Source: Trichonephila clavipes
Taxonomy: Eukaryota
Length of the DNA: 64,000 nucleotides
Assembly (NCBI GenBank): GCA_019973935.1
Contig: BMAU01016994.1
Location: 944,762 to 1,008,761, forward strand
Direction: 5' to 3'
Shown: positions 1,167 through 46,325 of the stretch, piece by piece
How the letters are laid out: each line of letters starts with the position of its first letter
Position numbering within the stretch: position 1 is the first letter of the stretch
Made by a program: the position numbers and the translations under genes
The notes under the pieces: generated by a model
Database searches by the model: none
The model's input: the letters and a program-made list of their open reading frames with translations, nothing else
What the model was told of the DNA's origin: nothing

Positions 1167-1168
<2 letters not shown>

Positions 1169-1203: not shown

Positions 1204-1207
<4 letters not shown>

Positions 1208-8440: not shown

Positions 8441-8462
8441 TTCACTTCACTTCACTTCACTT
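8441..8462 (+). repeat. (TTCAC)n 3' terminal microsatellite of the LINE
   Basis: ttcacttcacttcacttcacttc sits immediately before the 3' copy of the TSD. Confidence 0.8.
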
Positions 8463-10570: not shown

Positions 10571-10599
10571 AGAGCAACGTTAGACATCAAATGACCATT

Positions 10600-17654: not shown

Positions 17655-17850
17655 GGTTATTCATGGACCACAAGATATGATTATTATTCCTCCTTATCAT
17701 TATTGCATCATTCGCAATCCTGTGCTTCGAAATTCTGAAAGTGCTGTAGTTTATGATAGTGTTGGTCAAATCAAGTTAAAACATGCTGATTTGGAAGTGA
17801 GATTGCAACAAGATCCTTTTCCATTATACCCTGGAGAAGTTATTCATGTG
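17655..17850 (+). CDS. MVP: MVP exon (partial CDS, vault repeat 2 region): [35 protein letters not shown]
   Basis: The acceptor AG is at 17653-17654 and the donor is GTATGA at 17851. It is colinear with human MVP ..[31 protein letters not shown]. The first base completes a codon begun in an upstream exon that I did not find. Confidence 0.85.
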
Positions 17851-18854
17851 GTATGAAAATTAATCATAATTTTAAGTATTTAAATAAGTGTGTGGATGTT
17901 AATTTTTTTTTAAAAAAATCTATTAATATCCAATGATTCTTGGTAGGTTCATACCAATTTTTTTTTAAAAATTAGGAATAAAAAATCCACATGTAACATT
18001 TGGAACATGTAAAATTTGTCCAAAAATTTTACATGTTCTGCTTATGTGCAGTTTTCAGTTCTCTATTTCAAAGTATTTTTATTCCTGAAAAGGATTCCTT
18101 ATGAGTATTTTAAAGTTTAAATAAGATTTATAATAAAAATGACAAAAAGCAAAATTGTTTTAAAAAATTGTTTTTAATATATATATGTACTACTGTGTGG
18201 CTAACTTGTTTTGACATACGTCTGGTTATACCAATCCTAAAATCCAGCATAAAATGCACACTTTTAACACAAATAATAAGATCGAAATTTACAGGTGTGC
18301 TTTATATGTCGGGTATAAAAGTGAGAGCTTTAAAAATTAAAAAAAAAGATGAATATAGGAAAAAAATAGATCTCTATACAGATCAAAATAGAGTTTATTT
18401 AAAAGAAATAACATTTCTTATGAACTTAAAGGGTTGTAATTCTACAAGCATGCTATTTTTTTTATAAAGCTTTGAATAATACCTTGAACAAATGACTTTA
18501 AAACATAAGAGCATTATGCAAATGCATTCCAGGTTTCCTCTTAAAAAAGGAGGTGCACATTATACGGAACTTTCTTAGACTATGAAATGCTTATTTTTAA
18601 CTGACAATTATATCTTTAAAATATTAATTTTCATAGAAAAAATTAATATTCTCAAATCAATTTTTTTAAATACTGTTTCATTTAAATGTTTTTAATTATA
18701 TATATGGATTTTACTTTGTTAAAAACTTTTAAACTAATAAATATATAACGTTTTTAGTATTTTAAAAATTTAATTTTTTTAAACACCTGAATACAAGATT
18801 TTGTTACAGCTTAAATAAATTTAAGTTAAAAAATTAAATTTTTTTACATTGCAG

Positions 18855-18975
18855 GGAGTGACCCCGTTAACAGTTGTACCATCAAATACTGCCTTGCGAC
18901 TCAAGGCAGTTCGAGATTTTGAAGATGATACTATCAAAAGAATTGCTGGTGATGAATGGTTGTTTGAAGGACCAG
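18855..18975 (+). CDS. MVP: MVP exon: [41 protein letters not shown]
   Basis: The acceptor is gcag at 18851-18854 and the donor is GTATG at 18976. It matches human [41 protein letters not shown]. It ends in phase 1. Confidence 0.9.
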
Positions 18976-19171
18976 GTATGCTATTCACATTTTACTAAAG
19001 AATGTATTGCTTTTTTAATGCAAGATTGAAACATTACTTTGCATATTTCATTACAGTATCGAATAAGTTGTTTCTGAACTTAATTTGTACAAAGTATTAT
19101 GTGTTTATATACACACATTAGATGTATGGGTATATATATGTATGTTTGTATATACAGTTTATGACCAATAT

Positions 19172-19525
19172 TTTTTTCCCTGCTAATCGGCTGCATAATT
19201 GCGGCTAAGCCTTTGCAGCATGGCAAGTCCCCAAATGTGAGAGCCATTTCATGGTTGTCATCTAGTGGCAGCTCTTGCTATTGAATTTTGATGCTCGAAT
19301 TAATTTTAATTCAAGCTCTCGTTGGATGCTGAATGTTTGCAGTGATTTTAATTTCGTCAAGAGTAACAGCCAAACTGATACTCAAGGGAATTTTTACATG
19401 CCATATAATCTTATGACATTGGTGCCTATGATTTTTGCATCTAGAAAATCTATTAACTCCAGCTGGGATCGAACCCGCAACCTTGGGCTCACAAAGCAGG
19501 CACGCTATCTTTGAGCCACTGAGCC
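19172..19525 (-). mobile_element. tRNA-derived SINE (unrelated family), minus orientation, with a 12-bp TSD
   Basis: The reverse complement of 19440-19520 is a tRNA-like head (gtcggctcagtggctcaaagatagcgtgcctgctttgtgagcccaaggttgcgggttcgatcccagctgg). The minus-strand poly-A tail corresponds to ttttttt at 19172-19178. The element is flanked by tatgaccaatat at 19160-19171 and 19526-19537. Confidence 0.75.
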
Positions 19526-21347
19526 GACAATATATATGACCAATATCATACAAAATACAACACCAACATAGAATGGTCAGAAAGTAAAGAAACTTGGCAA
19601 GCAGAGAGAAACATTGATCATGAGCGATCAATCAATGATTTTTCAGATAATACTCATAATTTGGGGAGAACAAGTCAGCTCATTAGGTTTGAGGACCTCC
19701 AAAGACAATACATGAGGCAGCATGTCTAAGAAAAGAATAAAAGGGAATACAGATGGCATTCGGAGGAATAGCTCTCCATCTCATGTCAACTCTCTCTCTC
19801 TCTTTTTTTTATACAGCCCTTACAGGGCATGCAAAATATGTCCAATTGCTTCCCAGATCTGTTTGGTTCAGGAGAAATCTTGGAGAATAATAGCCAGGGG
19901 AAAAATTTTAGCTGATGTGTGCAATCAGGTGTTTCCCTGCTGGTAATGAGCATTGGGCACCCTTTTGAGGAAGGAGAGTGTCACAAGCCACAGATCATCA
20001 TCTAGGTATCGCTAAGCCTTCATAATGCTCTGAATATGAACCAGAGGGGATCTACTATCTTAGGCAATTGTGTCCCAAACCATACAAGCAACATTACTTG
20101 GTGAAATGTTCCACAGATACAGCCAAATTGGACTGCCACCTTCCTACATTGCAACTATCATTAGACAAACAGAAGCATAATTTGTTTAATGATTCTGATT
20201 GATATGGTAACATATCACATGTTGCAAATACAGTGCCATAAATGGCTTGCAAGGCCACCATCACTTGTTAATGGATGTCTAAGGATGTAAATATCTGCAT
20301 GCTGACATTGCTGTGGCCTCATTGACACCCCTCAAACTTGCCACTTTTCCTCATTTGAACCACCTTTGTCTCAGCCAATTTGCTGTAGATGCATCTAGGT
20401 GAGCATCAGCAGAAATTTGATATCTGAACCAACTTGCCCTTCACAATCCAGTCTCCTTGCAATATCATTTGTCTTCTGGACTTGCCTCCATTCATGGTGG
20501 CAAGGCATTCTCTGCTATTATGTGTGTCCTCTGAGGCAAGAACAAAATTTCAACAATCCCTAACAGAAATAACATAATTATTACCTATTGTTCTGTTTCT
20601 TTCCATTAATGTGTGCTGAAGCATTTCACACAATTTGTATTGCTAAGTAAGGTTCGCCTACCATGAAATTGGCATAATTTTCTGGCTACTTCTTCTTTAG
20701 TTGTGTTGAATTTTCTGTGTATATACATGTTTAATAATATGAACTTTATATTGGTTCTTGATTTTTCTTTATTAATATGTTTTGTAATAATTATAGTTAA
20801 ACATTAAAATAATACCAAAAAACAAATAAAAATGTTTTTATTATTTTATAACAAATTTTCGTTTGATATACATTTTACTCTTTATGGAATTGTAATACAT
20901 GTATATAACATAAAATTAAAAAAAATATATGGGAATGCTCATATTAATAAAATATGTTTTCTTGAAAACCTGATATTGTTTCAATGCAGTGTTAATAGTG
21001 ATAGCTAAAATGTTTCTTGTTGTGTAAACATAATTCTTTATTTTGCTTGTAGCTTATTCTTTCACTGAGCATGATGCTAATTAAAGTGACTTTCCAATTA
21101 TAGTTTGTTGAATCATTTTAAGTGAAAAATTTTTGCTTTTCTTTTTTTCTAATACAAAATGTATAAAAGTTGCTGCAAATTTTTTTAAAGAATTTGAGCT
21201 TTAAATCACTAGGAGGAAAAATACACTTATTCCAAAACTAATAAACTATAATATTCATTAAACTTTTTGTAGGTAATTTAATTGACTGCTTTTCATTTAG
21301 CAGCATTAATTACTCCATCTGTTAAAAATCTTCTATCTACTTCTCAG

Positions 21348-21574
21348 GTACCTTTATTCCACGGAAAGAAGTAGAGGTATTGGAAACTATTTCAGCTATT
21401 GTGATTAATCCTAATCAAGCCCTCAAACTAAGAGCTACTGCTGAAACTGTAGATAGGAATGGAAAAGAAAGAGTAACTGGTGAAGAATGGATAGTGAAGA
21501 AAACTGGAGCATATTTGCCTGGAGCTTATGAAGAAATAGTTGATGTAGTTAATGCTTATGTATTAACAGATAAA
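21348..21574 (+). CDS. MVP: MVP exon: (G)[75 protein letters not shown]
   Basis: The acceptor AG is at 21346-21347 and the donor is GTAAGT at 21575. It matches human [50 protein letters not shown].. Confidence 0.9.
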
Positions 21575-24008: not shown

Positions 24009-24245
24009 GAAGCTGTTCATGTTAAAGCAAAGAAGTCTTTTGTAGATGAATTTGGAAAAACAAGGAAAAATGGGGAGGAATGGCTAATAACATTAGCAGA
24101 TACTGAAACTTTCATTCCTGGTGTTTATGAAGATGTAGTAGGAATTGTAAAGATCACAACTCTTTCTAATCGTCAGTATTGTGTTATTCTGGATCCCTTG
24201 GATACAGATGGTAAACCTCAGTTAGGAAGGAAAAAACTTATAAAG
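24009..24245 (+). CDS. MVP: MVP exon: [79 protein letters not shown]
   Basis: The acceptor AG is at 24007-24008 and the donor is GTTTGT at 24246. It matches human ..[60 protein letters not shown]. Confidence 0.9.
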
Positions 24246-25117
24246 GTTTGTTTTTTACCTAATTTATTCTTGTGAAATATGGTGATTATTAATTTTACAG
24301 TTTCATTAAAAAGGTTTTTGCATACTCTTTCAAGGTTAATATTGCTTGACTTAAATTTTCATTTTTGGGGTCAGTTGTTTCATGAAATAAATTTAGAATA
24401 AAAGTGTAATCTGATATTGAATCTTAAAATGTTTTTTAATTTTAAAAAAAAAATTCACTACGAAATTTTCAAATCACTTAATGTTATCAAAAATAAAACT
24501 CGTTATCATTTCTGTCATCAGTGCTATTATCTCTTGTTAGATTAAATGAGCAATTATAAAATTATATGATTTATAGATTGTTTTTACACTTTGAATTGAT
24601 TCTTTAAAGATTAATTCGTTTGCTTAAATTTTTTTTAAATCGGCATTTGGTTTGAAGTTTATGTACATTTATTATAGTATATGATTTTTAAAAATTAATA
24701 ATAGTGTTTTAAATAATTGTAAATGTTTTATCTAGAAGATGAAGTTCTAAATTTAAGTGATCTTTATATAATTATGATTTGTGAGATTTACAAAATATGT
24801 ATAAGAGCGCATATATATTTTGTGCAGGTTAACATTTGTGAAAGTGAAATTTATGCTTTTAAATATATATATACTTAAACTAGTCCAAATTGTTAAAAAT
24901 AAGGAGTTTAAATTACATGTTCATATAATTTGCATATTAATTTTTTTTTTCTTAAATTTATCTTTTTGCTTTATTCTTTAGATACATATCAGTTATATAC
25001 TTGGCACCCTTCTCTAAATTTTAAAATATATTTTAAATATGGTTGTAATGCAATGGTTTTTAATTTTTGATGCCATTTATAAAGTAGCTTACATTTTAAA
25101 TTCATTTTTAAAATTAG

Positions 25118-25249
25118 GGTGAAAAATCATTTTTCTTGCAACCTGGAGAAAAATTAGAAGCTGGTATTCAGGATGTTCATGTTCTAAGTGAAAATGAAGG
25201 TATTATTTTAAGAGCAAGAGAAGCATTTCAAGACAATAGTGAAACTCCT
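25118..25249 (+). CDS. MVP: MVP exon: [44 protein letters not shown]
   Basis: The acceptor AG is at 25116-25117 and the donor is GTAAGT at 25250. It matches human [33 protein letters not shown].. Confidence 0.9.
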
Positions 25250-25701: not shown

Positions 25702-25851
25702 ATTTTTAATCGTAATCCTGGAGACCGTTGGATGATTAAAGGTCCTACTGAATACATTCCATCAACTGAAGTAGAAATTGTTACCAAACGATATGCTATT
25801 GCACTAGATGAAAATGAAGGAATATATGTGAGAAATATTAAGTCTGGTCAA
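25702..25851 (+). CDS. MVP: MVP exon: [50 protein letters not shown]
   Basis: The acceptor AG is at 25700-25701 and the donor is GTAAGT at 25852. It matches human ..[45 protein letters not shown]. Confidence 0.9.
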
Positions 25852-26030
25852 GTAAGTAGAGATCAACAGCCTTTGTTTGTATTAAAAAAGATACTTCAGA
25901 ATTTTTTTCATTTTCAGTGAGAAATGCTTTGAGATGTAAGAATTTTGAACAAATCTTGTATAACATTTACTGAAATTTGAAAATGTTTAACTGCAGAATT
26001 TAAGATATACTTGTTTAAGTTATTTATAAG

Positions 26031-26416
26031 GCCGTGGGTAGCCTAGTGGTTAGAGCATCGGACTCCAGACCGGAAGGCCTGGGTTCGATGCTCGATGTCA
26101 CCAAATACCCTCCGAGTGCACACAGATACGTGCTCGGCAAATCAGTGGGTCCGTAGTCTTGTGGGCTTATTCACTAGCGCAGGAACTGAGAATATTTCCT
26201 CCCCTTCAGTTCACTTGCAGAAATTGTGGAGGTGGGAGATGGAGGTCGTGCCATCTCCATCGTCCCTTCGGGAGTTCCTCACCGAGCTTAAATCGCACTG
26301 TCACCTGTATGGTGCTCAAGGCCAACGACAGGCGCACCTCTTGCCCATGCCACGACTTCGTGGGCCTCGTTCTGACGACGTCAGACAGGTGGCATTAGCC
26401 ACAACAACAACAACAA
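26031..26416 (+). mobile_element. tRNA-derived SINE, copy 2 (same family as 15961), in an MVP intron, with an 11-12 bp TSD
   Basis: It has the same head and body as copy 1 and a (CAA)n tail at 26401-26416. It is flanked by gttatttataa(g/t) at 26019-26030 and 26417-26428. Confidence 0.9.
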
Positions 26417-28107: not shown

Positions 28108-28370
28108 GTTCGTCTTATTTCTGGTTCTACCTATATGCTTAATCAAGATGAGGAACTTTGGGTAAAGGAATTGCCACCCCAAATAGAAGAATTGTTGAAT
28201 AAAGGTCATGACCCTTTAAGTGATAGAGGCTCCTGGAGACAAAAGGCAGATACTGCTCATTTTAAACAAAAAGCTACAAAATCAGAAGAAGAAGGAGCCA
28301 GAGCTGTTACTTTAAGAGTTCCACACAATGCAGCTGTCCAAATTTATGATTATAAACAAAAAAAGTCAAG
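28108..28370 (+). CDS. MVP: MVP exon: [87 protein letters not shown](R)
   Basis: The acceptor AG is at 28106-28107 and the donor is GTAAGT at 28371. It matches human [61 protein letters not shown]. It ends in phase 2. Confidence 0.9.
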
Positions 28371-31300
28371 GTAAGTATTTTTAGAAATAAAGATTTGGAA
28401 CATTTCTTTTTAATTATTTGAATGTGTATTATGTCTTGATTGATTCTGGAGAAGGCATAACTGATCTTTTTTTTTAAACTTATTTGTGTTACTTTTAAGT
28501 TATGCACTATTCAATCAAAACGAATTAAAACTTCTATGATATTTTCCTAAAAGTGCACATTATTTTTTCACGTTTTGACTGCCGTGGCAGTTTTTGGGAT
28601 TCCAGTGTAAAAAAATTTGAGTATCCAGTGTGGTACAAATTACACAACTATTACAAAATTCATATTTACTCTGATATACTACAAGTTTTATTATAGGTGC
28701 TCAAATATGGCAAGTCAAAAGAAAAACTTCCTGATAACTTGTAAATGGTGTCTTGGGCAATAATGGAAACTACAAATTAACTAGTGGCAGTCAAAATGTT
28801 AAAGTTCTTTTGTATATTTCGTTTGCTATGGGAAAATTAAGAGTAATTTCTATTAGCTGCTGAAATTATATTTGTATTAAAGAACATAAAACAGACTACA
28901 AAAACTACTTTTATGGAAGGGGTTTTGTAGGCAAAAAATGTATGGGGATAAAAAAGAGTGAGGTTTGAAACTTCAAATCTCTATCTTGTGTATGCCATTG
29001 TATGTAATACTTATCAAAAGAGTGGTATATTTTCTGTTAAAATTTCATCGATGAATTAAAAAGCATGAAAAAATGTTGAAAGTATGAATGTTCCTTTAAA
29101 AATATTCCTAATTTGTTTAGACTAGGGATGGCCAATGTGTGGCACATGTGCCACAGTGTAGAACAGCAAAGTTGTATCTGTGGCATGTGAAGACTTGCTG
29201 AAAATTCAAAATATTTGAAAAGATGATAATAATTAGCAATTTTTTTTAACAATTGTATTGAAATGCGGCTGTTTTAAACTAAAAAATACACTCAAAATTT
29301 ATTTGAAATACACTTAATTAATTAAATTACAATGGGAAATAATCACATGTAGAGACTCAATCTCTAATGTTGTGTATGCTGGCTTTCCGATATTATGGAA
29401 AATTTAAATAATTTTAATTTATAATCACAGAGAGAAAAGATTGTATTTTTCCTACGCAAGTTAAGTCCTATAACTTTTATGAAGAGTTTTTTGCTTTTGC
29501 AAAAAAGGTTAATTAATTCAGGAACTATTTACCAAAGTTAACAATTCTCCAAATGACGGATTAAAAAATTTAATATTCATTTTGCAGGATTCGTTCAGTA
29601 CTAAGTTTGCTAATTTTCAAGATGATAAAAAATGCTGTTCTTTTCACAAATCTTTTTTAACATCTCTGCAAGACTTTGATTATTGCCCACCTGAAATCGA
29701 AATTGTGACCTACAACACAATATATACTGAAAAACAAGTATAAGGAAGCTATTTCAACTGTAAATGATCCGAATTATGTTGAATTTTGGAAATTTGTACT
29801 AACAAGCAATTCTCCAAATTTACACGATTTGGCTGTCATATATTGCTGTAGGTTTAGATCAACATATATTTTGTAAACAAATGTTTTCTGTTATGAACAA
29901 AATAACATTAAAAACTCAAAATTAACTGATATGCACCTAAAACAATTTTGTTAGCATCTTGAAGAGATAACTCTGATCTCTACAGTGGCGTAGTGGATTC
30001 TAGGGGTTCAAAGCCTGACTGACCCCAATTACGTAATCCTTTTAAAAATCGGGGCCCGTGACTTTGCTGGGAGCTCCTAATATTTTCCATTATGCCACTT
30101 CTAATCTAATCCTAATATAGATTACTTAATAAAAAAAAACTGCAAATTCAAAAATCACATTAAGCAAATACTGACTATTTAATATTTATTTAGAATTAAA
30201 TCATTCAAGTTACTCCCTTTCATTTTATACCAAATATAACTGATTGAACCTGTATAAAGTTAATTAACAATAAAAGCTAACTTTGTACTTTTGTCTTATT
30301 TATTATATTTTTAAAAATTTGCGCTACTTATATTTGCATAAAAAAAGGAGTTATTTGTGCGAAAATCCCATGATAAATCTTTATGTAATTATTTTTTTCT
30401 CCTTTTCATACTTTTTTTTTTGTTGAAAATGCAAGTGGCATGTGTAGGGTTTTTTTTATCAGATAGTGATACTTCCCCAAAAAGTTTGGACACCCCTGGT
30501 TTAAACCTTGTGATCATGTTAGTTCTTAGATTATCTTCTCTCTATTGAAATCACTTATAAATATGTTCAATTATAATCAGAAATGAAGAAGGAATTAATA
30601 CATATTCTGGTTTCAACAAGTTTTTTAAATTTCCTGTTTTTTTTGGAACTCCAGATCTATTTCCTAAGTTATCTTAAGATTTGTGAGTTATTCAAAAAAA
30701 TTGCATTAGGATTTTTAAAACTTAATTCCTTCTTTTTGATTGAGTTTTATTAATTGTTTATATGAAAGCAATACCTTTTCAGCTTTTATTCTAAAAGGTT
30801 AAATAGTGAATCATTTTGATATGTTTAATATATTGTTTTTAACCTAATATATTTTTTGAGAGGAATGCTAAATATTTAAAAATTATATAAATGTTCTGGT
30901 TTATTGTGAAATATCTTAAATTGTATTATTTAGGAATTAAAGGTATTTTTCAGATGAAAAAATTCGTTAAAAATGTTTTAAACTTATGTGATTTAAAATG
31001 GTTTTAAAATTTCAAATTTAATGTTCTTATTTTCTTCAGAAAGATACATTAGATTGTATGTATGGATATACATTATATTGTATTCATTAATGTATTATTT
31101 TTGTATATATAATATATGTTCATGATTTTTTTCTAGATGTACTCGCATATAGTATTATTGTATGTCAGCATACTTTAAATTACCTCAGTCTGTATTATTT
31201 ATTTTTTAATGTATCAACTTTGTGAAACTTTCATCAAATACATCTCCTATTTGAAATATTTATTTTGTAAAATATTTTAAATAAACAAGTGTTTTATTTT

Positions 31301-31378
31301 TAAATTCACATTGATTTTAATAGTATGTGAATCAGTACCCAGTAATTTTATAATATAAAAAAAATTATTAACTTTCAG

Positions 31379-31576
31379 AGTTATTTTTGGTCCAGATCTT
31401 GTAATGCTAGCACCTGATGAACAATTTACACAACTTTGTCTTTCCGGTGATAAACCAAAAAGACCAAATGTTATTAAAACTCTCTGCTTACTCTTGGGAC
31501 CTGATTTTTGTACAGATATCATTACTGTTGAAACTGCTGACCATGCTAGACTTTCATTGCAACTTTCATATAATTG
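31379..31576 (+). CDS. MVP: MVP exon: (R)[65 protein letters not shown](W)
   Basis: The acceptor AG is at 31377-31378 and the donor is GTTTGT at 31577. It matches human [67 protein letters not shown]. Confidence 0.9.
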
Positions 31577-32829: not shown

Positions 32830-32971
32830 GTACTTTGATATTGGTGATAAAAGCCCTGAAGCAGCTGCTAAATTATTCAGTGTTCCAGATTTTATTGGTG
32901 ACCTTTGCAAAGCAATAGCTTCCAGAATTCGTGGCTCTGTTGCTGGGACAAATTTTGATGATTTTCATAAA
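32830..32971 (+). CDS. MVP: MVP exon: (W)[47 protein letters not shown]
   Basis: The acceptor AG is at 32828-32829 and the donor is GTATAT at 32972. It matches human [49 protein letters not shown]. Confidence 0.9.
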
Positions 32972-35747
32972 GTATATACTCCAAAGATACTAATTATTAT
33001 TAATTTTTAATTTAATGTTAGCAAACTTATAATTTGTTATGTGGTTCTATAAATTGAAAATTACATTGAATTTTATGTTGACTTTACCTACTGAGATATT
33101 ATGTGTTTGAGAGAGAAAATGTTAAATTGATTGCCATTATAGTACTAAGCTTTTACTTATAGTTAAACAGCAGTGTGTAAAATGTCCTTTTATTGAACTT
33201 ATTGTTCTGTACTATAGCACTAACCATGTATATATGTTTTATGTATGCTAAATATTTTCCTATACATTCTTAATTTTATTATCTAATGATTAAATATGAA
33301 TTGTCTATTCATAATTAGAGTTCAGTTTTTAATTTAAGCCATATGTAACATAGTTAAGTAAATTATTCTGTGCTCTGATCTTATTTGGCATTTTAAAGTT
33401 AAATGTTTATTTTTTTTTAGATATAGGTATTATTCAATTGTTATAAAAAGTCTTTCAGTAGAATTTTTAAAAATAAATTGTATAAAAAAAGGGTGTTTTT
33501 AAGTGCCGTAAAGTGAATTTTCCAGTATGACACACATTTAAATGAGATTTTTATTTATGGATGTTTTTATGAGTTTCAAAATAAAAGTTACCATTAGGTC
33601 TCAATAGATCTGCAAACAAACCCAGCTTTAAACGTAATTGCAAAATTATTTAATGAAAGTAAGAAATGTAAACTGGTGAATTGATATATATTATATAAAT
33701 TTATGCAGAACTGTATGTTAATCGTCTTTATTTATATGGAAAAATTTTTTATCATTGGCATCTAGAGATATTTGATAAATTACTAAAAGGGTAAAATTTT
33801 AGTATTAATTACTAATTCTGATGTTAGTTGAATGTGAAAGAGAAATTAGGGGCAATAATTAAGTGACAAGAATAGTAGGGTAATTTTTAAATATACTACT
33901 CTATCTTAATATTGGAACTTTTTCATAATTTTAAAATAAAAATATTTTTTGAAGTTCATTAAAAGTAATTAGGATCAAGTAAAATTATATCTGTTATGTA
34001 CAGAAAGTTGTTGATACATGAATTATGCACCTTTTAAAAATGGAATTGTTTAAAAGCAATGTATTGTTTTTTTTCAATATGTTCAAAGTTTCAATATATT
34101 ATATTTCAGTATCACTTAAGTACTCTTCTTTGAACTTAATACATTTGTCTTTTTTTTTCTTTTTCTTCATATTTTTCAAACTTATCAGTTGTAATGGTCG
34201 TCAACAACACTTATTTGTATCTTCGTTTCTTCTGTGTTAAATCTGTCTCTTCATGTCACTTTCATTTATGGGAACAAAAAAAAGCACAGAACAAAAGTAA
34301 TAGAATGAAGTTAGTTGAGTAAAGGGGGTGTGGTACAAGGGAGACATTTTTTTGCCCAAAACTGGCGCAATGAGATTGCTGTGGCTTCAGGTGTATTGTG
34401 ATGGATAAACTAGTTTCTTGTTTGGCACAAATCATACCTTTTTTATTGCACCTTTTTACATAATCTTCATTAAGTTTTCTATTTAGAAATTTAAGTAATC
34501 TGACCTGATCGAATAAACTCCAAACGCACAATCTCCCTCACATTAAAGAAACAATTATCATTATACTGGTATTTTGATTTCACTTGATGAGCTTTTTTGA
34601 TGGCTTGATTGCCATTTGGTTTCGAGATCATAAGAATAGCACTATGTCTTGTCATCAGTAACAACCTTGGAAAAGAAATCTAAGTTGTGCTTCGGAACTC
34701 AGTTCTTTACAAGGTAAGTTCTTTCTAAGCATATTATATTTCCACTTGAATGAAGAATCCAAAGTGCAACACAAAAAAATCCATTTTGCTACAACTCTTC
34801 TCATTCCTAAATCTTCTGTTAATTGCACTTAATTGAACCAAGCTCCTAGATAATCTAGGTAACTTCCCCATTTTATTAATGGTCCATCATTAGTCTGCAA
34901 GAACAAGGTCATAAATTTGTTTATCAATGAGAGAACTGCTTGTGCATTGTTTTTTTAAATAGCCTATCCGTGTAAGGTGTTCAACATTGTGACAGTAGTT
35001 TATCTGATGTTTTCCAAACAGGAAATACATAAAATTTCATAGTTACTCACTGTTCTCTTAAATCAGATATTATAAAAAATGAGTGAAAATGGGGAATTGC
35101 TTTTTTTTAGAAACTTCCACTTTCAAAATGAGGCCTTTTGGTGGACTAAACTCAAAGAGGGATGCTCTACACTCATCTATCAAGAAAGAAAGTGCACACC
35201 ATAGAAGCTCTGCCCCCCTCTCCCCCAAAGTATTTTTCGGGGGTTTTGAGGGGTACCCTCTCACATTTCACAATTTAATCAATGTGATTATTTTATATTC
35301 TGGATTGTTTGCTTGTAAACAAAATTTTGAATGCTAAATAATTAAGATTTGTATTGGAATTTGAAATTGTGATGGATTTGAAAAATTGTCAAGAAATTTA
35401 TACCAATGCATTTTATAGTTTCAACCACTATTTTGAATCTTAAAAGGAGTCTTTGTAAGTGATTATATAAAATATTTTCTTACATTTACATTATTTAGTT
35501 GTATATATGATCATTTAATTTTATTTGTGAAACTAAATCAATATATATAAAACTAGGTAGTATGATGCAAGAAAATGTTTTTTGATTTTGAAATTTTTAA
35601 TGAGAAAATTATAGTGTTTAATTAGTTTTTTAAAAAATATTCAGAAAAAGAAATTCATTAAAAAAATGCCGTACATTTCTACAAAATGCAAAACTTTTTC
35701 AAAAATTTTGTAGTTCTGAATATTTTATGCATCATTTCTTCCTTTAG

Positions 35748-35959
35748 AATTCTGCCAAAATCATACGCACAGCTGTTTTTGGATTGGATGAAAACAAGAA
35801 AGTTAGAAGAACTTTTAACTTCCCTCAAAATAATCTGAATATTACTAGTGTGGATATTCAAAGTGTTGAACCTGTAGATCAACGAACCAGAGATTCATTG
35901 CAAAAGTCTGTTCAGCTTGCTATAGAAATTACCACTCAAAGTCAAGAAGCCACTGCTAG
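35748..35959 (+). CDS. MVP: MVP exon: [70 protein letters not shown](R)
   Basis: The acceptor AG is at 35746-35747 and the donor is GTAAAT at 35960. It matches human [62 protein letters not shown]. Confidence 0.9.
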
Positions 35960-36525: not shown

Positions 36526-37878
36526 TATGAGGGGTGATAAAAAGGAAGGTTGCAAGTCAAATAAAGAAATATTTATTAACAATAGACAGAAAATACAAAA
36601 GGGAATTAAGAGGCATACATGCCCCTATTGCTCTTTTCAACATAATCACCAAGTCTATTTAGGCATTTATCAGATCGCAGAACTAACTTGCTTAACCCCT
36701 TTTGGTAGAAATTGGGCCCCTGTCCATTGAGCCAAGTCTCGGCGTATGTTTTCACAGCACTGTCTGAAGAGAACCATCTATGGGATAAGTGCTCCTTCAA
36801 CCTCGAAAATAAGAAATAGTCACTGGATGCCAAATCTGGGCAGTATGGTGGTGGTGGGGTGACTTAAGATTTCCCACCTGAACTGTTGCAACAATTCTTC
36901 CATTGCTCGAGCAATATGGGGCCTGGCGTTGTCATGCAGGAGAACACCTTCACTCAACGTGCTTGTCCGTTTGCACCATATGGCTTTGTGTAACCTTGTC
37001 AAAATGGCACAATAAGGATCTGCATTCATGGTCTGGCCACGTTCCAGGTAATCAATTAGGATAATACAACATGAATCTCAGAATATGGTTGCCATAACAT
37101 TACTGGCAGAGGGTGCAACCTTAATTTTTTTTTGTTCGTGATCTAGGGTGTTTCCACTCCATGGTTGCTTTTTTGCTTTTAGGGAAGAAATGAGGATGCC
37201 AAGTTTCTTCCCCTGTAACGATGTGATTGATGAATTGCTGGCCATCAGAATGGTAATACTGAAGAAATGTGAGATTGCACATCATTCGTGTGGCTTTGTG
37301 CTCATTGGATAACACATGTGGAACACAGAGGGCACACACCTTGGAATATCACAGCACATCAGAAACGATTTGCTGCACGCTGCCATAGCTCAGTCCCAGC
37401 TCTGACGAGATTTCACGCAGAGTTATCAGTCGATCATTTTCTTTCGATCGATTCTTCAACTCGTGCCATGTTGATTTCTGTTGTTGAGGAACTTGGCTGG
37501 CTGCTCTCTGCCATATTGGGGTTTTCGACATCCTGTCTACCTGATTGAAAAGAGTGACATCATTTCATTATTTGTTGTCTGCTCATTGCTTCTTCACCAT
37601 CAGCTTCCTTAGATTTGACTGTGAATGTCAGATGTGGACACATTATTTGCCCATAAAAATCAAATCGCAGCTCGCACTTCCATATGAGACCAATTTTCTT
37701 AGTGTCTTGCCATTTCAATCGTCCTCAACCATCTGGGAACTTTCACTACCTACCCACACACCAGCTGTATGACAAATAGTGCCATCTGTCTTCACCTTGG
37801 GGAAACAAAATTTCTCAACCGTATGTAGTTTTGGTTGTAAAAAAGGTTGTAACCTTTTTTTCTGATCATCCCTCATAA
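36526..37878 (-). mobile_element. mariner-like element (~1.35 kb) with ~30-bp TIRs; the transposase is a pseudogene with stops and frameshifts. It lies in an MVP intron.
   Basis: Minus-strand ORF fragments give ..HDNARPHIARAMEELLQQFRWEILSHP.. , ..SSDYFLFSRLKEHL.. , ..IVTGEETWHPHFFPKSKKATMEWKHP.. and an N-terminal HTH (ITLREISSELGLSYGSVQQI). The TIR on the left is tatgaggggtgataaaaaggaaggttgcaa. On the right the reverse complement is tatgagggatgatcagaaaaaaaggttacaacc. Confidence 0.8.
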
Positions 37879-39444
37879 AATTTTATAAACAAAGTGTCTT
37901 AAAATATACAAACACATCGAGAACTTAATCATCTTGTTATTATCACTAAATATTCTTTTAAGCACTAATGTGATGAAATAAGTTTAGTATAGGATTTAAT
38001 AGCACATGTTAACATTTGATACTGAAGGCATTTTTTAGTTGACACCAAAAGATTTACTAAACACATTAATTTTATTTGCATTCTTTTTTTTAGTTCCAGC
38101 TTCCAAGTCATTGTTTATGATTTTTAACTGTTTATGTGTCTCCATAAGATGAAATGCATTCAAAAAACACAAATTCTTTGTGTCTAACACAATTTCCTTT
38201 GTGTTAGTCATGTATTTATCAATTTGATATAAAATTGTAGAATCTTTAAAGATGATTATCTCTTGTTAGTTAATCTAATTTTCATTGTTCGTTCTATAAA
38301 AGGCTAGTCACTCTAAGTTGTCATTGTTTGTTTCTACTTGGACTTTATATTGAATTACAGGAAAGTTAACTTTTGTAAATTAACCAGTTGAAACCTCTCT
38401 TCATCAAAAGATTGAGAAAAGGGATTTCATTCCACAATCATAGTATTTTAGTCATATTTTTAAAGAATAAGTTCTTTTTCATGGTTTGTTATTGGCCTAA
38501 GTAGTTAGGTTCAATGTATCATTATTTACTATTATTTAAAGTTTTTTCCCCCTACACGATAAACTAGTCTGAGATAAGTTATCTGTATCATCAAAAAGAG
38601 TTATTTCAATTTAATTTTAAAATATAGATCCCTTTAGAGTCTGATGTACATAATAATTAAACAAACTCTAAAAATTACTTACTATTCAAAAATGTTAGAT
38701 AATATTGAGTAATATAACCATAGTAGAGAGAGATTTCTTCGCATACTGGTATTATTAGTTATGAAACAAACTGAGATTGAGTTACCTGCTACTTTTTGTA
38801 AAAAGTGTTTAATGTATGAGAAAATTAATACTTTGATTTTTGAGGGTACTGTGTATATGGTTTTGGTTGTATATGTGATTAAGAACATTTCCTAAAATCA
38901 TGGAAATTTGTAAAATACTTCTGAAATTTATTATGTGTGTATCATAATTTATTTAATTGTTTTGGGTGATTAAATTACAAAAGTATTGATGTAGTAGAGA
39001 AAAAAAATGTCTAATGAAAGTGCTTACAGATTTATTACAATCTTTAATTCCAACAATGAAAAATATTTGTTATATTTCACTTCAAAATATGCAAAGAATG
39101 GGATAATTGTTGAACACATGTTTTCAAATGGGCTAGGTTTATGAGGAGCAATTCATGATAAATGTAATCTTGTGTTTGTGATTGAATTCAAAGCTGATGT
39201 TTGATTTGTACTTATAAAATCGAGATACAATATCAAATTTGATAATTGATAAAGATGTCTGAGAATTAAGATTCTTCAAAAAGTTTTTCAAAACAAAATC
39301 TTTATTTCAGGCGTCACACAAAAAAAATTCGAAAAGAAAAATTTTTTGTAAAAAACTAGAATATGCAATAGTGAAACACATGAACTGACTAGCTGGAACA
39401 TTTATTATGACAAAAATGTTATGTATTTCATCTCCTCATTGTAG

Positions 39445-39688
39445 ACATGAAGCAGAGAGAAGGGAGCAAGAAGCTCGTGGTCGCCTTGAACGACAGCGAA
39501 TATCTGATGAGGTAGAAGCAGAAAAATCAAGGAAAAGCTTGTTGGAATTAAAAGTCAGTAGCATGTCCATTGAAAATTGTGGTCAGGCTAAAGCAGAAGC
39601 TTTGAGTCGTGCAGAGGCTAAAAGAATTGAAGCTGAAGCTGCTGTAGAGCAGGCTAAATCAAAGGCAGAGGCTATGACAATTGAAGCA
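39445..39688 (+). CDS. MVP: MVP exon: (R)[81 protein letters not shown]
   Basis: The acceptor AG is at 39443-39444 and the donor is GTATGT at 39689. It matches human [85 protein letters not shown]. Confidence 0.9.
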
Positions 39689-41150: not shown

Positions 41151-43843
41151 CAGTGGCACACACAAGGGCAGAGCAACCCCCCCTCATCACCCTTGAATTT
41201 TTTCTTTTGGTTGATTATAATAATTCTATGCATATAGAATATAAAATTTAATGAAGTATTTGTTATTAATTAATTATTTATTTTATTAACCATTTGACGG
41301 TTAGGGAAATTAGCAGTTTTTGTTTACTTAATTCACACAGGTTAGTAAGCAGTAGTGGAAAGTGGCAGCTGTTTTCCCCTGCCATTCTTTTGAAAATGTC
41401 ACCCTTCTCCGGCGATGCCATAGATAGCTCGCCTCACGCGTTTTAAAGATTTCTTAAAGTATTTGTAGTACACAAATAACAGTTTTTACGTACTTTAAAA
41501 TAATTAATAAATGATAATTATTAAATAGTAAATTATAAATGATTATAATCAATTATATAAATAATAATAGTTAATTATAAATATAAGACAAATATTAAAT
41601 TGAAAGGACTAAACAAAAACAACTAATGTAAAACTTTATGAAGCATTTAAATATAGTAATTACCTAAAAAATCTTTTAGTGTGTGATATACTTTAAAACA
41701 TGGAATTGCACATAATGGGGCATTACAGTCTTTGCAATAAGTACGTGTTTCACAGCGAATTCTTTTTCCATTGGCATCATTTTTGCTGCAACATACCACA
41801 CATCGTCTAGTAGGTCCTTTCTTTTTTTCTGTAGGTGGAATATAATCAAGAAAGTGGCGTGCTGACAATCTTAAAGTATTCGAAACTATTTCAGCAGGTT
41901 TTAATTTCAAATGCCTGCTTGTGATATTTTTCAACAATTCTTTCAGCTAGTTCAATTCTGAATTCCAAATTTGATTTTTTTATTCCCTTTTTTTTTCCAC
42001 AGCTGAAAAGCATTAAAAATTATGTCCAATAAATAACCAAATATTTTCTTGTAATATTTCCTTTGACGAGATCGAGTTAGGTCATAGTATCCAATTTGCT
42101 GATCCATGCGATCTACACCACCCATCATATTATTATAATCTGAAACGATCTTAAGCTTCTCTATTTCCGCATTTTTCAATTTATTTGGGACTTTTACGAT
42201 TTCAGGATTATGAATTGAGCTTATAGAATAAATATATTTTTTTATCTCTCCATTGCATGGTTGATGGTCTTACCTCTTTGATAGGCAAGTAAGTCTCCCT
42301 TTTTAAGCTTTTCTGTTTTCAGCTCCTTTGTTAGATCTTTTCTGTTAGGTCATAATGTTCCAAAAAAATTAGTTTTAGATTTTTCCTAACTCGGGAGAGT
42401 TGTAGTAATTATCCATAGTAAGGCAGTATCCTTTGTTTAATAGCAACTGAGACAATGTCAAAACTACCTGAGTAGAAAATGAACATTCTTTATTTTCTTC
42501 AGATACATCTGTACCTTTACTGACATAAATTATAATAGACCACACATATCCACTATGAGATTCACATAACATAAACATTTTGATACCGAATCTGACCCTT
42601 TTAAGTGGTAAGTATTAGGTCCAAGAAAGCCTCCCTTTATACAGCAATAGACTTTCATCAATACATATGTCTTGTTCGGGTGTATAAACTTCAGAAAAAT
42701 TTTTCTGTAAGTAATTTAAAGCAATGCATATCTTTTTTTTAGTTTTGGCTGAGGATGAGAAGAATCAGTGTTTTCATTCCTATCAAAATGAATAAATTGC
42801 ATAATACGGTCAAACCTTCTCAAACTCATGAGGTTAGAAAAACTAGGAGTTTCAATTAACTTTCTTTTTGACCAAAACATTCTTACAGTTGGTTTTGTAA
42901 TTATTCCTTTCAAGATTAATGTTGCAAAAAATACTCTCAATTCATTCGCATTCGTTTCACTCCAATGATGAATTCGAAAATGTTCTTTGCTCTTAAATTT
43001 ATTTAAATTTTCAGCAACAAAAATGTTGGTTTCAGTAACAATATAATTTACAATCTCATGAGTAAAAAATAGCTCGAGGTACTCTAGTGGATCAGAAATA
43101 TTTGTCACACAAGCTTTCATGCCCACATCAGCAGTAAAACTAAATCAGCTAGGAGCATGAGAACTTGAATCAATTTTACACTACTGTCGAACACTTGAAA
43201 AATCTTCCTCATTGCTTGAATCGTCTTCTAAGCTTGATATGCTGTGAACAAAGTCTTCATCAGACTCAAAACTTCATAAGCTTTTTGTATCGAAATCAAA
43301 ATCATCATCATAATAATCTAATTTTCACTTTTGAGCCATTGTACTTTACAAACACCCTAAAAACATGTCAAAATAGGCATAAAAAACAAGGTTAAAAAAA
43401 TCCCCCTTCATTATGAAAAGAAACTCATGGAACCCGTACTGCCATCTGTAGACAGTAAAACTAACTAAATTTCGCGAGTAGGATTCGTTTGTAACATAAT
43501 TAATGCAGAATAATAAATTCGAACAAAGCAAACTCGTCAGCGTGATTTGGGGAGTTTTACAACACAAGTAGTACTCGTTTCTAACCATTTGGGTCGAAAT
43601 CTTGCTCCCGAGCTGAACTCGTTTTCGCGCATTCTGAAGCACGATTTGATTGTGAACTGAACTCGTTCATAACCATCAAAGGGTTAATTAATACTAATTA
43701 TTTATTAAATAATTTGTTTTTAATGTTTTTTTCCTGACTAAATCAAAAGAATATGTTTGACAATTTATTGGGCTACAATATAAGAATGATAAACTTGCGA
43801 CCCTCAACCCCTCCTCTTGAAAAATTCCTGTTTGCACCACTGG
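41151..43843 (-). mobile_element. piggyBac-like DNA transposon; the transposase is a pseudogene split across at least four ORF fragments. It lies in an MVP intron.
   Basis: The minus-strand ORFs are 42716-43126 (..RIHHWSETNANELRVFFATLILKGI..FWSKRK..MSLRRFDRIMQFIHF), 42375-42578 (..SGYVWSIIIY..VVLTLSQLLLNKGYCLTMDNYYNS), 41952-42179 (..NNMMGGVDRMDQQIGYY..RKYYKKIF) and 41647-41937, which is the C-terminal Cys-rich domain (CVVCCSKN..RIRCETRTYCKDCNAPLC). The terminal 150 and 70 bp are shared with the MITE at 9790-10080. Confidence 0.8.
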
Positions 43844-44047
43844 TCGTTTTTATAAATGTGTACTTTTTTTTTTTTGCTTAAATAATTTGTAATGAAAAGA
43901 TTACATGATTTCTTTTTCAAATTTTGGTTTATGTTCCTTTTATACAAAGAGACATGATATGAATAATCATCTACTAATTGGAAGTGTTACATAAAGCATC
44001 AAAACTGTTAATTGAAAAAGATGCAGTAAAAAATTTTCTATTTGTAG

Positions 44048-44236
44048 GAAACAGAGTTGGAACGTCTTCGCAAAGCTAGAGAGGAAGAACTAAATTACCG
44101 TAAGGAGCAAAATAATATAGATGTACAAAAATTGAAAGAAGTAGCTGATATTGAAGTTCAGAAATTTAAAAGTATGGTTGAAAGCCTTGGAAGTGATACA
44201 ATTCAAGCTGTGGCTTGTGCTGGACAAGATTTTCAA
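44048..44236 (+). CDS. MVP: MVP exon: ETELERLRKAREEELNYRKEQNNIDVQKLKEVADIEVQKFKSMVESLGSDTIQAVACAGQDFQ
   Basis: The acceptor AG is at 44046-44047 and the donor is GTACAT at 44237. It matches human [64 protein letters not shown]. Confidence 0.9.
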
Positions 44237-46172
44237 GTACATTTCCATTCTAATTATTTATTTTTCTAATTTCATTAAGTAGAACAAATTAATTTAGGGA
44301 GAAATAGTGGGGTTATTTAATTAGACATAGTTAATAGTACTAAATAATTTTTTAAAATTCTAACTTTGGCTTCATTGAATTTTAATTTTCTGCTTGTTGG
44401 CAGATTAAGATTGTTTGTAAATCACAATCATGTTTTTCAAATTATTTTGAATTACTTTTAAACATTAATTTTTTTAAATTCTCATCTAAAGGTATTTCAT
44501 TCTGGAAAGATAAAATTAAATTTTTAATTAGGTTTTTTTTCTCAAAATAACTAAATAAAAAGTAATATGCCAAATTTAAAACACGTTTTTCTTGTTTCAT
44601 AATTGAATTTAATTATAGAAATTGTGTTGAATATAATTTGCATAATAATTATATAAATGAATTAAAAGGCGGACTGAATTGATACATAAATTATCTGTAT
44701 TGATAATTTTTTATATAACTTTTAAATAATTAATTTTTTTAATACCATTTATGTCTGTGTCATTGCATATACTATTCTTTCCTCATAATTCTTTCTTAAT
44801 TTTATTGATCATGGAACCAAATCCTTCATGAAATTTCATATTCTTTAAGAGTTTGTCATTAAAAACCTAAACTTAGTGAGTAAAGAGTTTCCTAACATTT
44901 TTAAATTTAGTTTAAAAGTTTATGTGGATTTCAATGATATAATTGTTTTTTGTGCTGTAAAAAAACTAGTGTTTATCTATAAAGTTTTGATCTTTGTATA
45001 AAAATTTATCATATTTTAACTTAAACACATGCACTTTAAATTACTTTAAAAATGAGTCATAAAACTTTGAAGAAATTAACTATCTGCTTTATAATTAATG
45101 AAGTACTAGTATATTTACAAATTTTAATATTTTTCTGTGAAATTTTATTATGCAATATAAGTACGATAAATATTTTTCAATGTTATATTTTGTATTTCAT
45201 TCTCTGTTCACACTTCTATAATTTTCCTTCAAGAAGTTAATAGGTTTCTAATACATTTGACCTTTGTTGTGTGAAATATAAATGAAGTAAAACTAATTGT
45301 AATAATAATTTAATTACTATAAATATGTATTTGCATAAAACTGTTAAAATGTATTAATTACATCTAGTTTTTGTAATTAATAAATAGGGCATTTTTCCTT
45401 TTATATTTAATTTTTTTTGTCTAATTTGAATTGGTGCTTTATTGGCACAGTATTGAGATTTTTCATTTGCACTAAAATCAGGCTATAATTACCCAGTGAT
45501 AAAGTCAACTTTGTAGCTGTTAGATTTGAGTTCTTATTTTATTTTTTCATAGAAAATAATAATTGGCTCATGTTATATCAAACTGAGCCCTCAAGTCTTC
45601 ATTAAATATAATGAAGCTTTGTGAGTGAGGTACCCAGTGATGATGCTGTACTTATCTGACCAAAATTGAAAATTACAAAAACCATCATTAAATAATCTAA
45701 TGTATTGTTCTAGTGATAGGTTAAGGCTGTCTTTGTCTGAGAGCCTAAACTATACACACACACACACACACAGAGCTTTAAAATTTAAAAATATTTTCAT
45801 AAATCTCTCATATTTTTCATTTCAACACATAAAGGGGTAGTTAAAACTAGCTTTACAGTGTAGGAGTAAAAAGGCAAAGCATTTTATAACCCCCCCTCTA
45901 AAAAAGGGATCAATTCACTATGCTGCTCTCTATAAGGATTGAAGCCTGAACATAATAATTTTTGTATCAGTTGTTTTATATCTGAAAAAATATTTCAAAT
46001 ATGGGTCCTATTCTTTATCATTAAGCAAATACAGTCTTAGTTTGAGCAAAAGTAGGCAAAAAGATGAATTAAAGGTTGTTGAATTAAAGCTTTTGATGTA
46101 ATTATATGTATCGTATTATATGCATGTATAATTTGTTTTTATTGCAAAATTTAATTTTTGGTAAATTTTTAG

Positions 46173-46325
46173 GTTAAACTTCTCCAAGGTCTTGGAATTA
46201 AATCAGCTTTGATTACAGATGGTAATACACCTATCAATCTCTTTAACACTGCTGAAGGTTTCCTTGGTGGTGCTATAGCTGCAAAAAAGCAGCGTCTTGA
46301 CAGAGGAGATTCAATGAGTTCCTAA
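46173..46325 (+). CDS. MVP: MVP terminal exon: [50 protein letters not shown]
   Basis: The acceptor AG is at 46171-46172 and the TAA stop is at 46323-46325. It matches human [32 protein letters not shown].. The C-terminal tail is shorter than in the vertebrate protein. Confidence 0.9.

What the first reader, a model, noticed from the sequence alone, without database searches (positions are those of the whole stretch)
17655..46325. Thirteen-exon Major Vault Protein gene reconstructed by hand; every intron carries transposons
Six-frame ORF fragments joined at canonical GT-AG sites give an uninterrupted ~820-aa protein. It is colinear with vertebrate MVP across the vault repeats, the shoulder/cap-helix region and the conserved [15 protein letters not shown]-terminus. 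Phases are consistent at all 12 junctions. The gene spans about 29 kb because its introns hold a SINE, a mariner and a piggyBac-like element. As far as I recall, MVP has been lost from several major invertebrate lineages, which would make its presence here worth noting.
Basis: partly seen in the sequence, partly recalled or inferred. Interest (0 to 1): 0.6.

Follow-up and report, generated by a model that had tools for sequence, protein, structure and literature searches.

The report
Spider major vault protein gene

Summary
The 13 proposed exons (17655-46325, + strand) all have AG/GT flanks. Joined in frame +1, they give 820 codons with a single terminal stop. Residues 8-820 are 100% identical, without gaps, to GenBank GFV75487.1, "major vault protein [Trichonephila clavipes]". 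That confirms all 12 junctions and names the source species.

Pfam finds the Vault repeats and the MVP shoulder domain. Human MVP residues 44-851 align colinearly. The exons have the same lengths and splice sites in T. clavata and T. inaurata, and dN/dS is 0.09-0.12, so this is a functional gene under constraint.

There are two corrections:
- **The gene is 5'-incomplete in the window.** The first coding exon (about 54 codons, start Met and most of vault repeat 1) is absent. A non-syntenic, transposon-rich block of at least 12.8 kb lies where relatives have it.
- **"Every intron carries transposons" is an overstatement.** The SINE, mariner and piggyBac are real, with target-site duplications and empty sites in relatives. 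Introns 2, 6, 7, 9, 10 and 11 hold insertions. Introns 3, 4, 5, 8 and 12 show no transposon signal.

MVP in arachnids is already published and annotated in many spiders. The finding is ordinary and already known.

The parts
17655..17850 (+). MVP coding exon. It starts with the third base of an Arg codon (phase-2 acceptor) and encodes the end of vault repeat 1 and repeat 2.
   Evidence: AG/GT flanks. tblastn with T. clavata MVP. Same length and splice sites in L001 and L003. The donor of the relatives' exon 1 ends ...GAACG|gt, which completes CGG with G17655.
18855..18975 (+). MVP coding exon
21348..21574 (+). MVP coding exon
24009..24245 (+). MVP coding exon
25118..25249 (+). MVP coding exon
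25702..25851 (+). MVP coding exon
28108..28370 (+). MVP coding exon
31379..31576 (+). MVP coding exon (start of the shoulder domain)
32830..32971 (+). MVP coding exon (shoulder domain)
35748..35959 (+). MVP coding exon (shoulder domain and start of the cap helix)
39445..39688 (+). MVP coding exon (cap helix)
44048..44236 (+). MVP coding exon (cap helix)
46173..46325 (+). Last MVP coding exon (cap ring, [15 protein letters not shown] motif, TAA stop at 46323-46325)
19154..19602 (-). Intron 2 insertion with a tRNA-like SINE head on the minus strand (perfect B box GGTTCGATCCC at 19465-19475). It is absent from T. clavata and shared with T. inaurata.
   Evidence: The SINE assignment is an inference from the A/B-box-like head. 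ARAGORN and Rfam do not call it.
26030..26414 (+). tRNA-derived SINE in intron 6. The head is GGCCGTGGGTAGCCTAGTGGTTAGAGC...GGTTCGATGCT and the tail is (CAA)n. It is flanked by the 13-bp target-site duplication AAGTTATTTATAA (26017-26029 and 26415-26427). The site is empty in T. clavata and T. inaurata. A second copy (92% identical) lies at 15960-16352.
29123..30498 (.). Intron 7 insertion. It is absent from T. clavata and shared with T. inaurata. Its part at 29853-30498 is a dispersed repeat that also occurs at 11719-12221. The element type was not identified.
   Evidence: no Pfam hit
34259..35042 (-). Intron 9: two short insertions relative to T. clavata (34259-34600 and 34821-35042). Intron 9 also carries mariner-like translated fragments on the minus strand (e.g. 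VQLTEDLGMRRVVAKW). The coordinates of these fragments were not printed or mapped against the two insertions.
   Evidence: Insertions. Fragments are seen in the translations and recognised from knowledge of mariner transposases. Pfam did not reach threshold, so this is weak.
36528..37875 (-). Degenerate mariner element in intron 10 (1,348 bp). It has TA target-site duplications at 36526-27 and 37876-77 and terminal inverted repeats TGAGGGGTGAT... / ...ATCATCCCTCA. The frameshifted transposase carries HDNARPH and PDLA(S)SDY motifs. It is absent from T. clavata and present in T. inaurata.
   Evidence: Pfam Transposase_1 E=3e-4, at 21 bits below the curated 24-bit cut-off. Terminal inverted repeats. 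Empty site. Shared with L003.
38410..39002 (.). Further 593-bp insertion in intron 10 relative to T. clavata. It ends in an A-run, so it may be retroposed. Type not identified.
41290..43683 (-). Degenerate piggyBac element in intron 11 (2,394 bp). It has TTAA target-site duplications at 41286-89 and 43684-87 and terminal inverted repeats CCATTTGACGGTTA / CCCTTTGATGGTTA. The site is an empty TTAA in both T. clavata and T. inaurata, so the insertion is specific to the T. clavipes lineage.
   Evidence: Pfam DDE_Tnp_1_7 E=2.5e-52 and zf-Tnp_2 E=9e-6. Boundaries. Empty sites.
1..12843 (.). Upstream block with no synteny to the relatives, lying in the intron that precedes exon 17655. It contains a non-LTR retrotransposon (ORFs 3398-4597, 4747-6576 and 6580-7764, + strand). 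The first MVP coding exon must lie beyond it, outside the window.

Best explanation
The window is nuclear DNA of the orb-weaving spider Trichonephila clavipes. [quoted passage not shown] In other animals, 78 copies of this protein assemble into the hollow vault ribonucleoprotein shell, and the same role is inferred here from very high sequence conservation. The gene is long because of the spider's large, AT-rich introns. About half of them have taken up transposable elements at different times. Insertions shared with T. inaurata are the intron 2 SINE-like element, the intron 7 repeat and the intron 10 mariner. Insertions specific to T. clavipes are the intron 6 SINE and the intron 11 piggyBac. 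The start codon and the first ~54 codons lie on an upstream exon. A TE-rich block of at least 12.8 kb has pushed that exon out of the window. What is shown: exon structure, identity, purifying selection, TE boundaries and empty sites. What is inferred: vault assembly, and the location of exon 1 beyond the window.
For: All exons have AG/GT flanks, and there is one open frame of 820 codons ending in TAA. Pfam finds Vault (217.6 bits), MVP_shoulder (178.8), Vault_2, Vault_3 and Vault_4. phmmer against the PDB aligns human MVP 44-851 to query 2-803 at 1,092 bits. Residues 8-820 are 100% identical, without gaps, to GFV75487.1 of T. clavipes. Identity to T. clavata and T. inaurata MVP is 97-98%. The introns are syntenic with T. 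clavata (75-88% nt) and T. inaurata (85-95% nt). All 13 exons have identical lengths and AG/GT flanks in both relatives, and dN/dS is 0.088-0.122. The donor of the relatives' exon 1 is phase 2, which matches the acceptor at 17655. The exon 1-exon 2 intron is 1.5 kb in T. clavata, 5 kb in T. inaurata and more than 10 kb in N. pilipes, so it is size-variable.
Against: The first coding exon was not found in the window on either strand, so the intactness of the whole gene in T. clavipes is not demonstrated. The GenBank model for this species also starts at an internal Met. No expression data were available. Vault assembly cannot be tested here.
Confidence: 0.96

Rival explanations
1. The T. clavipes gene has truly lost its canonical first coding exon through TE-mediated rearrangement or deletion. 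It would then make an N-terminally truncated MVP starting at Met8 of exon 17655, or use an alternative first exon or promoter inside the inserted block.
For: Exon 1 is absent from 17.6 kb of upstream sequence, although it lies 1.5-5 kb upstream in two congeners. Synteny ends abruptly at 12843/12844. The deposited T. clavipes model (813 aa) begins at the internal Met.
Against: The remaining 820 codons are under strong purifying selection (dN/dS ~0.1), and the phase-2 acceptor at 17655 is intact. In N. pilipes the same intron exceeds 10 kb and the gene model is split in the same way, which points to a gene-prediction artefact across a long intron. MVP N-termini form the waist contact between the two vault halves (established structural knowledge of rat vault, PDB 4V60), so loss of repeat 1 would probably be deleterious.
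Confidence: 0.03
2. The locus is a decaying pseudogene or a non-functional duplicate of MVP.
For: The introns are invaded by many TEs, and the 5' exon is missing from the window.
Against: There is no stop or frameshift in 2,463 nt. All 24 splice dinucleotides are canonical. dN/dS against two species is 0.09-0.12, while intron divergence is 8-25%.
Confidence: 0.005
3. The MVP sequence is a contaminant or a horizontally acquired copy, for example from prey or a parasite, as reported for spurious insect MVP hits.
For: Contaminant MVPs have been described in pterygote assemblies (PMC11219742).
Against: Exons and introns are syntenic with three other nephilid genomes. The nearest proteins follow spider phylogeny: Trichonephila, then Caerostris and Argiope, then other spiders, then horseshoe crabs. 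Base composition and TE content are the same inside and outside the gene.
Confidence: 0.005

Closest known systems
GFV75487.1, major vault protein [Trichonephila clavipes] (813 aa)
   Same: Identical over its whole length to residues 8-820 of the protein reconstructed from the window. It is the same gene.
   Different: The deposited model starts at the first in-frame Met of exon 17655-17850. Both lack the true first coding exon.
T. clavata GFR31630.1/GFR31627.1 and T. inaurata GFY45221.1 major vault proteins (orthologues)
   Same: 97-98% amino-acid identity over 820 aa without gaps, identical exon lengths and splice sites, and syntenic introns.
   Different: They include the first coding exon, 1.5 kb and 5 kb upstream. 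They lack the intron 6 SINE and the intron 11 piggyBac. T. clavata also lacks the intron 10 mariner and has its own 7.9-kb insertion in the intron after the first shared exon. The 947-aa and 969-aa models carry N-terminal extensions of doubtful validity.
Vertebrate MVP (human and rat; solved vault structures such as 4V60, 4HL8, 7PKZ)
   Same: Colinear alignment to human residues 44-851 at 1,092 bits. The Pfam domain families are Vault, Vault_2, Vault_3, Vault_4 and MVP_shoulder, and the alignment runs on colinearly through the C-terminal ~200 residues and the [14 protein letters not shown] motif. Naming those C-terminal residues cap helix and cap ring rests on knowledge of the solved structures.
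   Different: There is a short variable insert between repeats 8 and 9 and a shorter loop after the shoulder domain. The C-terminal tail is different and shorter. Vault assembly has not been shown for any spider, as far as the tools here reveal.

Membership tests
Major vault protein (MVP) | N-terminal array of nine vault repeat domains (Pfam Vault, Vault_2, Vault_3, Vault_4) | tested here: met
   Pfam: Vault x4 stretches (217.6 bits), Vault_2 x2, Vault_3 and Vault_4, all above the curated cut-offs. The alignment to human MVP starts at residue 44, so repeats 2-9 and the end of repeat 1 are in the window. Most of repeat 1 is on the off-window exon seen in relatives.
Major vault protein (MVP) | Shoulder domain following the repeats | tested here: met
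   PF11978 MVP_shoulder, 178.8 bits, residues 482-599, full profile 1-118 of 118.
Major vault protein (MVP) | Long C-terminal cap helix and cap ring with the conserved [14 protein letters not shown] motif | tested here: met
   Ungapped alignment of residues ~614-803 to human 662-851, including [16 protein letters not shown]. Helical conformation was not modelled here.
Major vault protein (MVP) | Orthology to annotated MVPs (best hits are MVPs, in phylogenetic order) | tested here: met
   3,162 hits at E<=1e-50. The listed top hits that carry a specific product name are named major vault protein or MVP-like; the other listed hits are unnamed or labelled only hypothetical/unnamed protein. Spiders come first, with 100% identity to the T. 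clavipes entry.
Major vault protein (MVP) | Complete open reading frame from the start codon | tested here: not met
   Within the window the start codon and ~54 codons are missing. This limits what the window shows and does not count against family membership.
Major vault protein (MVP) | Self-assembly of 78 copies into a vault particle, with associated vault RNA, TEP1 and PARP4 | not testable with these tools
   No Rfam family, including vault RNA, reaches its gathering score in the window. The partner genes would lie elsewhere in the genome.
piggyBac transposon (intron 11 element) | TTAA target-site duplication, CC..GG terminal inverted repeats, and a DDE_Tnp_1_7 transposase with a C-terminal zinc finger | tested here: met
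   TTAA on both sides, terminal inverted repeats matching at 12 of 14 positions, and an empty TTAA in two relatives. Pfam E=2.5e-52 and 9e-6. The ORF is broken into several frames, so the copy is inactive.
mariner/Tc1 transposon (intron 10 element) | TA target-site duplication, ~30-bp terminal inverted repeats, ~1.3 kb length, and a D,D34D transposase | tested here: met
   TA on both sides and a 1,348-bp element with terminal inverted repeats. Pfam Transposase_1 is only 21 bits against a cut-off of 24. The HDNARPH motif is visible in the translation. The copy is degenerate.
tRNA-derived SINE (intron 6 element) | Pol III A and B boxes in a tRNA-like head, a short simple-repeat tail, target-site duplication, multiple copies, no coding capacity | tested here: met
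   The head has TAGCCTAGTGG and GGTTCGATGCT, and the tail is (CAA)n. There is a 13-bp target-site duplication, the site is empty in two relatives, and a second copy at 92% identity lies in the window. ARAGORN and Rfam do not score the head as a tRNA.

The most novel reading that the evidence does not exclude
In T. clavipes a TE-rich insertion block of at least 12.8 kb has separated, or deleted, the canonical first MVP exon. The spider would then express an MVP lacking most of vault repeat 1, or one with a TE-derived alternative 5' exon. This would be a natural test of whether the N-terminal waist contact is needed for vault closure.
Probability: 0.03. Interest if true: 0.3.

Novelty: already known. 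Interest (0 to 1): 0.07.

Why it matters
It matters little beyond quality control. The exercise shows that reconstructing exons by hand from raw sequence can reach base-perfect junctions. It also flags that the public nephilid MVP gene models are inconsistent at the 5' end: truncated in T. clavipes, split in N. pilipes and over-extended in T. clavata and T. inaurata. The dated intronic TE insertions (shared versus lineage-specific) are small, clean markers for Trichonephila phylogeny. The presence of MVP in a spider is not news, because arachnids other than mites and ticks are already documented to retain it (PMC11219742).

Tried and rejected
1. I searched for the missing first coding exon three ways, and nothing was found.
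   - Regular-expression scans of the upstream frames.
   - tblastn with the T. clavata N-terminus at word size 2 and E<=100 on both strands. The only 'hit' was a 6-aa chance match, LDDINW, on the minus strand at 8534-8551.
   - Sensitive blastn with the T. clavata and T. inaurata upstream DNA.

2. I tried to extend beyond the window. The look-up of encoding contigs has no record for the T. clavipes protein. A database search with the exon-1 peptide returned only 13 short proteins and none from T. clavipes. That search did not even return the full-length nephilid MVPs, so it is uninformative about absence.

3. ARAGORN and Rfam gave no tRNA, vault RNA or other RNA family. The SINE heads are too diverged to be called as tRNA.

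4. Pfam scans of concatenated ORF fragments gave no hits for introns 1, 2, 3, 4, 5, 6, 7, 8, 9 and 12. The mariner-like fragments in intron 9 therefore rest on visual motif recognition only.

I treated it only as a lead, and the PDB search and database proteins replaced it.

6. I did not run structure prediction, because sequence evidence was already decisive.

7. The pseudogene and contamination readings were considered and rejected on dN/dS and synteny.
Full report
**Check of the observation**

I joined the 13 proposed segments exactly as listed. Every segment is preceded by AG and followed by GT; the last one ends in TAA. The 2,464-nt concatenate has 98 and 55 stops in two of the frames. 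In frame +1 it has a single stop, the terminal one, and gives 820 residues. The intron phases are 0,1,0,0,0,0,2,2,0,2,0,0, and the segment at 17655 begins with the third base of a codon. So 17655 is a phase-2 acceptor, not a translation start.

**Identity**

- Pfam finds Vault (217.6 bits, four stretches), MVP_shoulder (178.8 bits, full length), Vault_2, Vault_3 and Vault_4, all far above the curated thresholds.
- A search of PDB sequences aligns residues 2-803 colinearly with human MVP 44-851 at 1,092 bits. The alignment runs through the repeats, the shoulder and the C-terminal ~200 residues (the cap helix and cap ring of the solved vault structures, named from knowledge of those structures), including [16 protein letters not shown].
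- A search of about 5.8 billion proteins gives 3,162 hits at E<=1e-50. The best is Trichonephila clavata MVP (97%), followed by other spiders (Caerostris, Argiope, Oedothorax, Uloborus, Parasteatoda), then horseshoe crabs, a scorpion, myriapods and molluscs.
- The 90% cluster of the top hit contains GFV75487.1, 'major vault protein [Trichonephila clavipes]', 813 aa. It is 100% identical, with no gap, to residues 8-820 of the reconstruction.

This settles three things. The window is T. clavipes DNA. The gene is already annotated.

**Evidence that the gene is functional**

I fetched the orthologous loci of T. clavata (L001) and T. inaurata (L003). The introns are syntenic, at 75-88% and 85-95% nucleotide identity. 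All 13 exons have the same length and AG/GT flanks in both species. Nei-Gojobori dN/dS is 0.088, 0.122 and 0.085 for the three pairs. This excludes a pseudogene, and the synteny excludes contamination.

Relatives encode about 54 further residues upstream: [53 protein letters not shown], that is, the start Met and most of vault repeat 1. These sit on an exon whose donor is ...GAACG|gt. That is phase 2, and it fits G17655 to make CGG, Arg.

| Species | Distance of that exon upstream of the orthologue of exon 17655 |
|---|---|
| T. clavata | 1.5 kb |
| T. inaurata | 5 kb |
| N. pilipes | more than 10 kb (annotated as a separate 76-aa 'MVP') |

In the window the exon is found on neither strand. 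Synteny with T. inaurata runs upstream only to 12844. Positions 1-12843 have no counterpart in the relatives. They contain a non-LTR retrotransposon with a zinc-knuckle ORF1 and an endonuclease/RT/RNase H ORF2.

The most economical reading is that this size-variable intron has been inflated by nested insertions, so that exon 1 lies off-window. The GenBank model then starts at the first internal Met because the predictor could not bridge the intron. True loss of exon 1 cannot be excluded from the window alone. I give that about 3%.

**Transposons in the introns**

The three named elements are real, and their boundaries can be set to the base from empty sites in the relatives.

- **Intron 6.** A 385-bp tRNA-derived SINE at 26030-26414 has A- and B-box-like motifs and a (CAA)n tail. 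It has a 13-bp target-site duplication, AAGTTATTTATAA. The site is unoccupied in both relatives, and a 92% identical copy lies at 15960-16352.
- **Intron 10.** A 1,348-bp degenerate mariner at 36528-37875 has TA duplications and terminal inverted repeats. Pfam Transposase_1 is weak (21 bits), but the HDNARPH motif is visible. The element is absent from T. clavata and shared with T. inaurata.
- **Intron 11.** A 2,394-bp degenerate piggyBac at 41290-43683 has TTAA duplications and CC...GG termini. Pfam gives DDE_Tnp_1_7 at E=2.5e-52 plus the zinc finger. Both relatives have an empty TTAA at the site.

Other insertions relative to T. clavata:

- Intron 2: 19154-19602, with a SINE-like head carrying a perfect B box.
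- Intron 7: 29123-30498, which includes a repeat also found at 11719-12221.
- Intron 9: two short blocks. The intron also holds mariner-like fragments, which I did not map onto those blocks.
- Intron 10: 38410-39002.
- Intron 1: one ~330-bp stretch with a second, non-syntenic match in the T. inaurata locus.

Introns 3, 4, 5, 8 and 12 are colinear with both relatives and have no window-specific insertion. They gave no dispersed-repeat hit and no Pfam hit. Introns 4, 5 and 8 are also short (452-1,253 bp) with 21-23% GC. 'Every intron carries transposons' is therefore not supported. About half do.

**Comparison with what is known, and significance**

Daly et al. 2013 found none in arthropods and proposed loss (PMC3762200). 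A 2024 survey then found MVP orthologues in 41 ecdysozoan taxa, including Chelicerata. It stated that arachnids other than Acari show no gene loss, and it confined the insect loss to Pterygota (PMC11219742). Together with the many annotated spider MVPs, this makes the presence of the gene in T. clavipes expected.

**Verdict**

This is an accurate hand annotation of a known, annotated and conserved gene. It has two overstatements: gene completeness, and TE content in every intron. Novelty: already known. Interest: low.

Noticed in passing
window 3398-7764 (+), probably extending to ~8300: A near-complete non-LTR (LINE) retrotransposon. ORF1 has a CCHC zinc knuckle. ORF2 has an AP-endonuclease, reverse transcriptase and RNase H, split by one frame break. 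A typical ORF2 C-terminal motif (LRIGHTRFTHRHLL...CPSC) follows downstream. It lies inside the intron that precedes the first in-window MVP exon.
   Followed up: partly
window 12843/12844: There is a sharp end of synteny with T. inaurata (...GGCAGTCCCCC|TTAAGAAAAC...). Everything upstream (1-12843) has no counterpart near the relatives' exon 1. The nature of the inserted block's terminus was not identified.
   Followed up: partly
window 15960-16352: A second copy (92% identical) of the intron 6 SINE lies in the upstream intron. It is absent from the T. inaurata orthologous site, so this SINE family has been recently active in the T. clavipes lineage.
   Followed up: partly
window 49633-50455 (-): An 823-bp insertion relative to T. 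clavata lies downstream of the gene. It carries mariner-like N-terminal HTH fragments (e.g. SKELVRGCLLYDFKVGLSAAASSRQICQAFG..., LTFGELARQFHTSSEMV). Pfam gave no significant transposase hit.
   Followed up: no
window 55536-57033 (both strands): There are Tc1-like transposase remnants: a weak DDE_3 hit at 55536-55850 (+), and a 160-aa ORF at 56551-57033 (-) with a DDNARPH-type motif. Part of it (56090-56643 and 56766-57022) matches sequence upstream of MVP in T. clavata and T. inaurata, so it is a dispersed family.
   Followed up: no
window 62206-63907 (-): A pol fragment of an LTR retrotransposon (RT_RNaseH, Integrase_H2C2, rve) runs off towards the window end. The region is GC-richer (0.435).
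   Followed up: no
window 54477-54687 and 1165-1216: A ~210-bp palindromic or self-complementary stretch and dinucleotide microsatellite tracts give many reciprocal BLAST hits. This is simple-sequence DNA.
   Followed up: no
proteins P0001, P0121, P0123, P0125, P0126 (public nephilid MVP models): The public gene models disagree at the 5' end. T. clavipes is truncated at an internal Met (813 aa). N. pilipes is split into 76-aa and 761-aa 'genes'. T. clavata (947 aa) and T. inaurata (969 aa) carry long N-terminal extensions with no similarity to other MVPs. These look like annotation artefacts.
   Followed up: partly
proteins P0001, P0002, P0004, P0126 (N-termini): A short motif, D(I/V/N)(N)WP(Q/P)L, recurs just upstream of the MAP.K(D/E)S start in several araneoid MVP models (Trichonephila, Caerostris, Oedothorax, Nephila). 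It could be a conserved in-frame 5' leader, an upstream exon or a regulatory element. It lies outside this window.
   Followed up: no
L001 16206-24120 (T. clavata): T. clavata has a ~7.9-kb insertion in the intron that is only 1,004 bp in the window (17851-18854). TE load in MVP introns therefore differs strongly between congeners.
   Followed up: no
protein P0124 (T. clavata, 356 aa, separate 19.6-kb contig): A second, partial T. clavata MVP entry sits on another contig and is 98% identical to the window protein over residues 305-659. It may be a haplotig or a recent duplicate.
   Followed up: no
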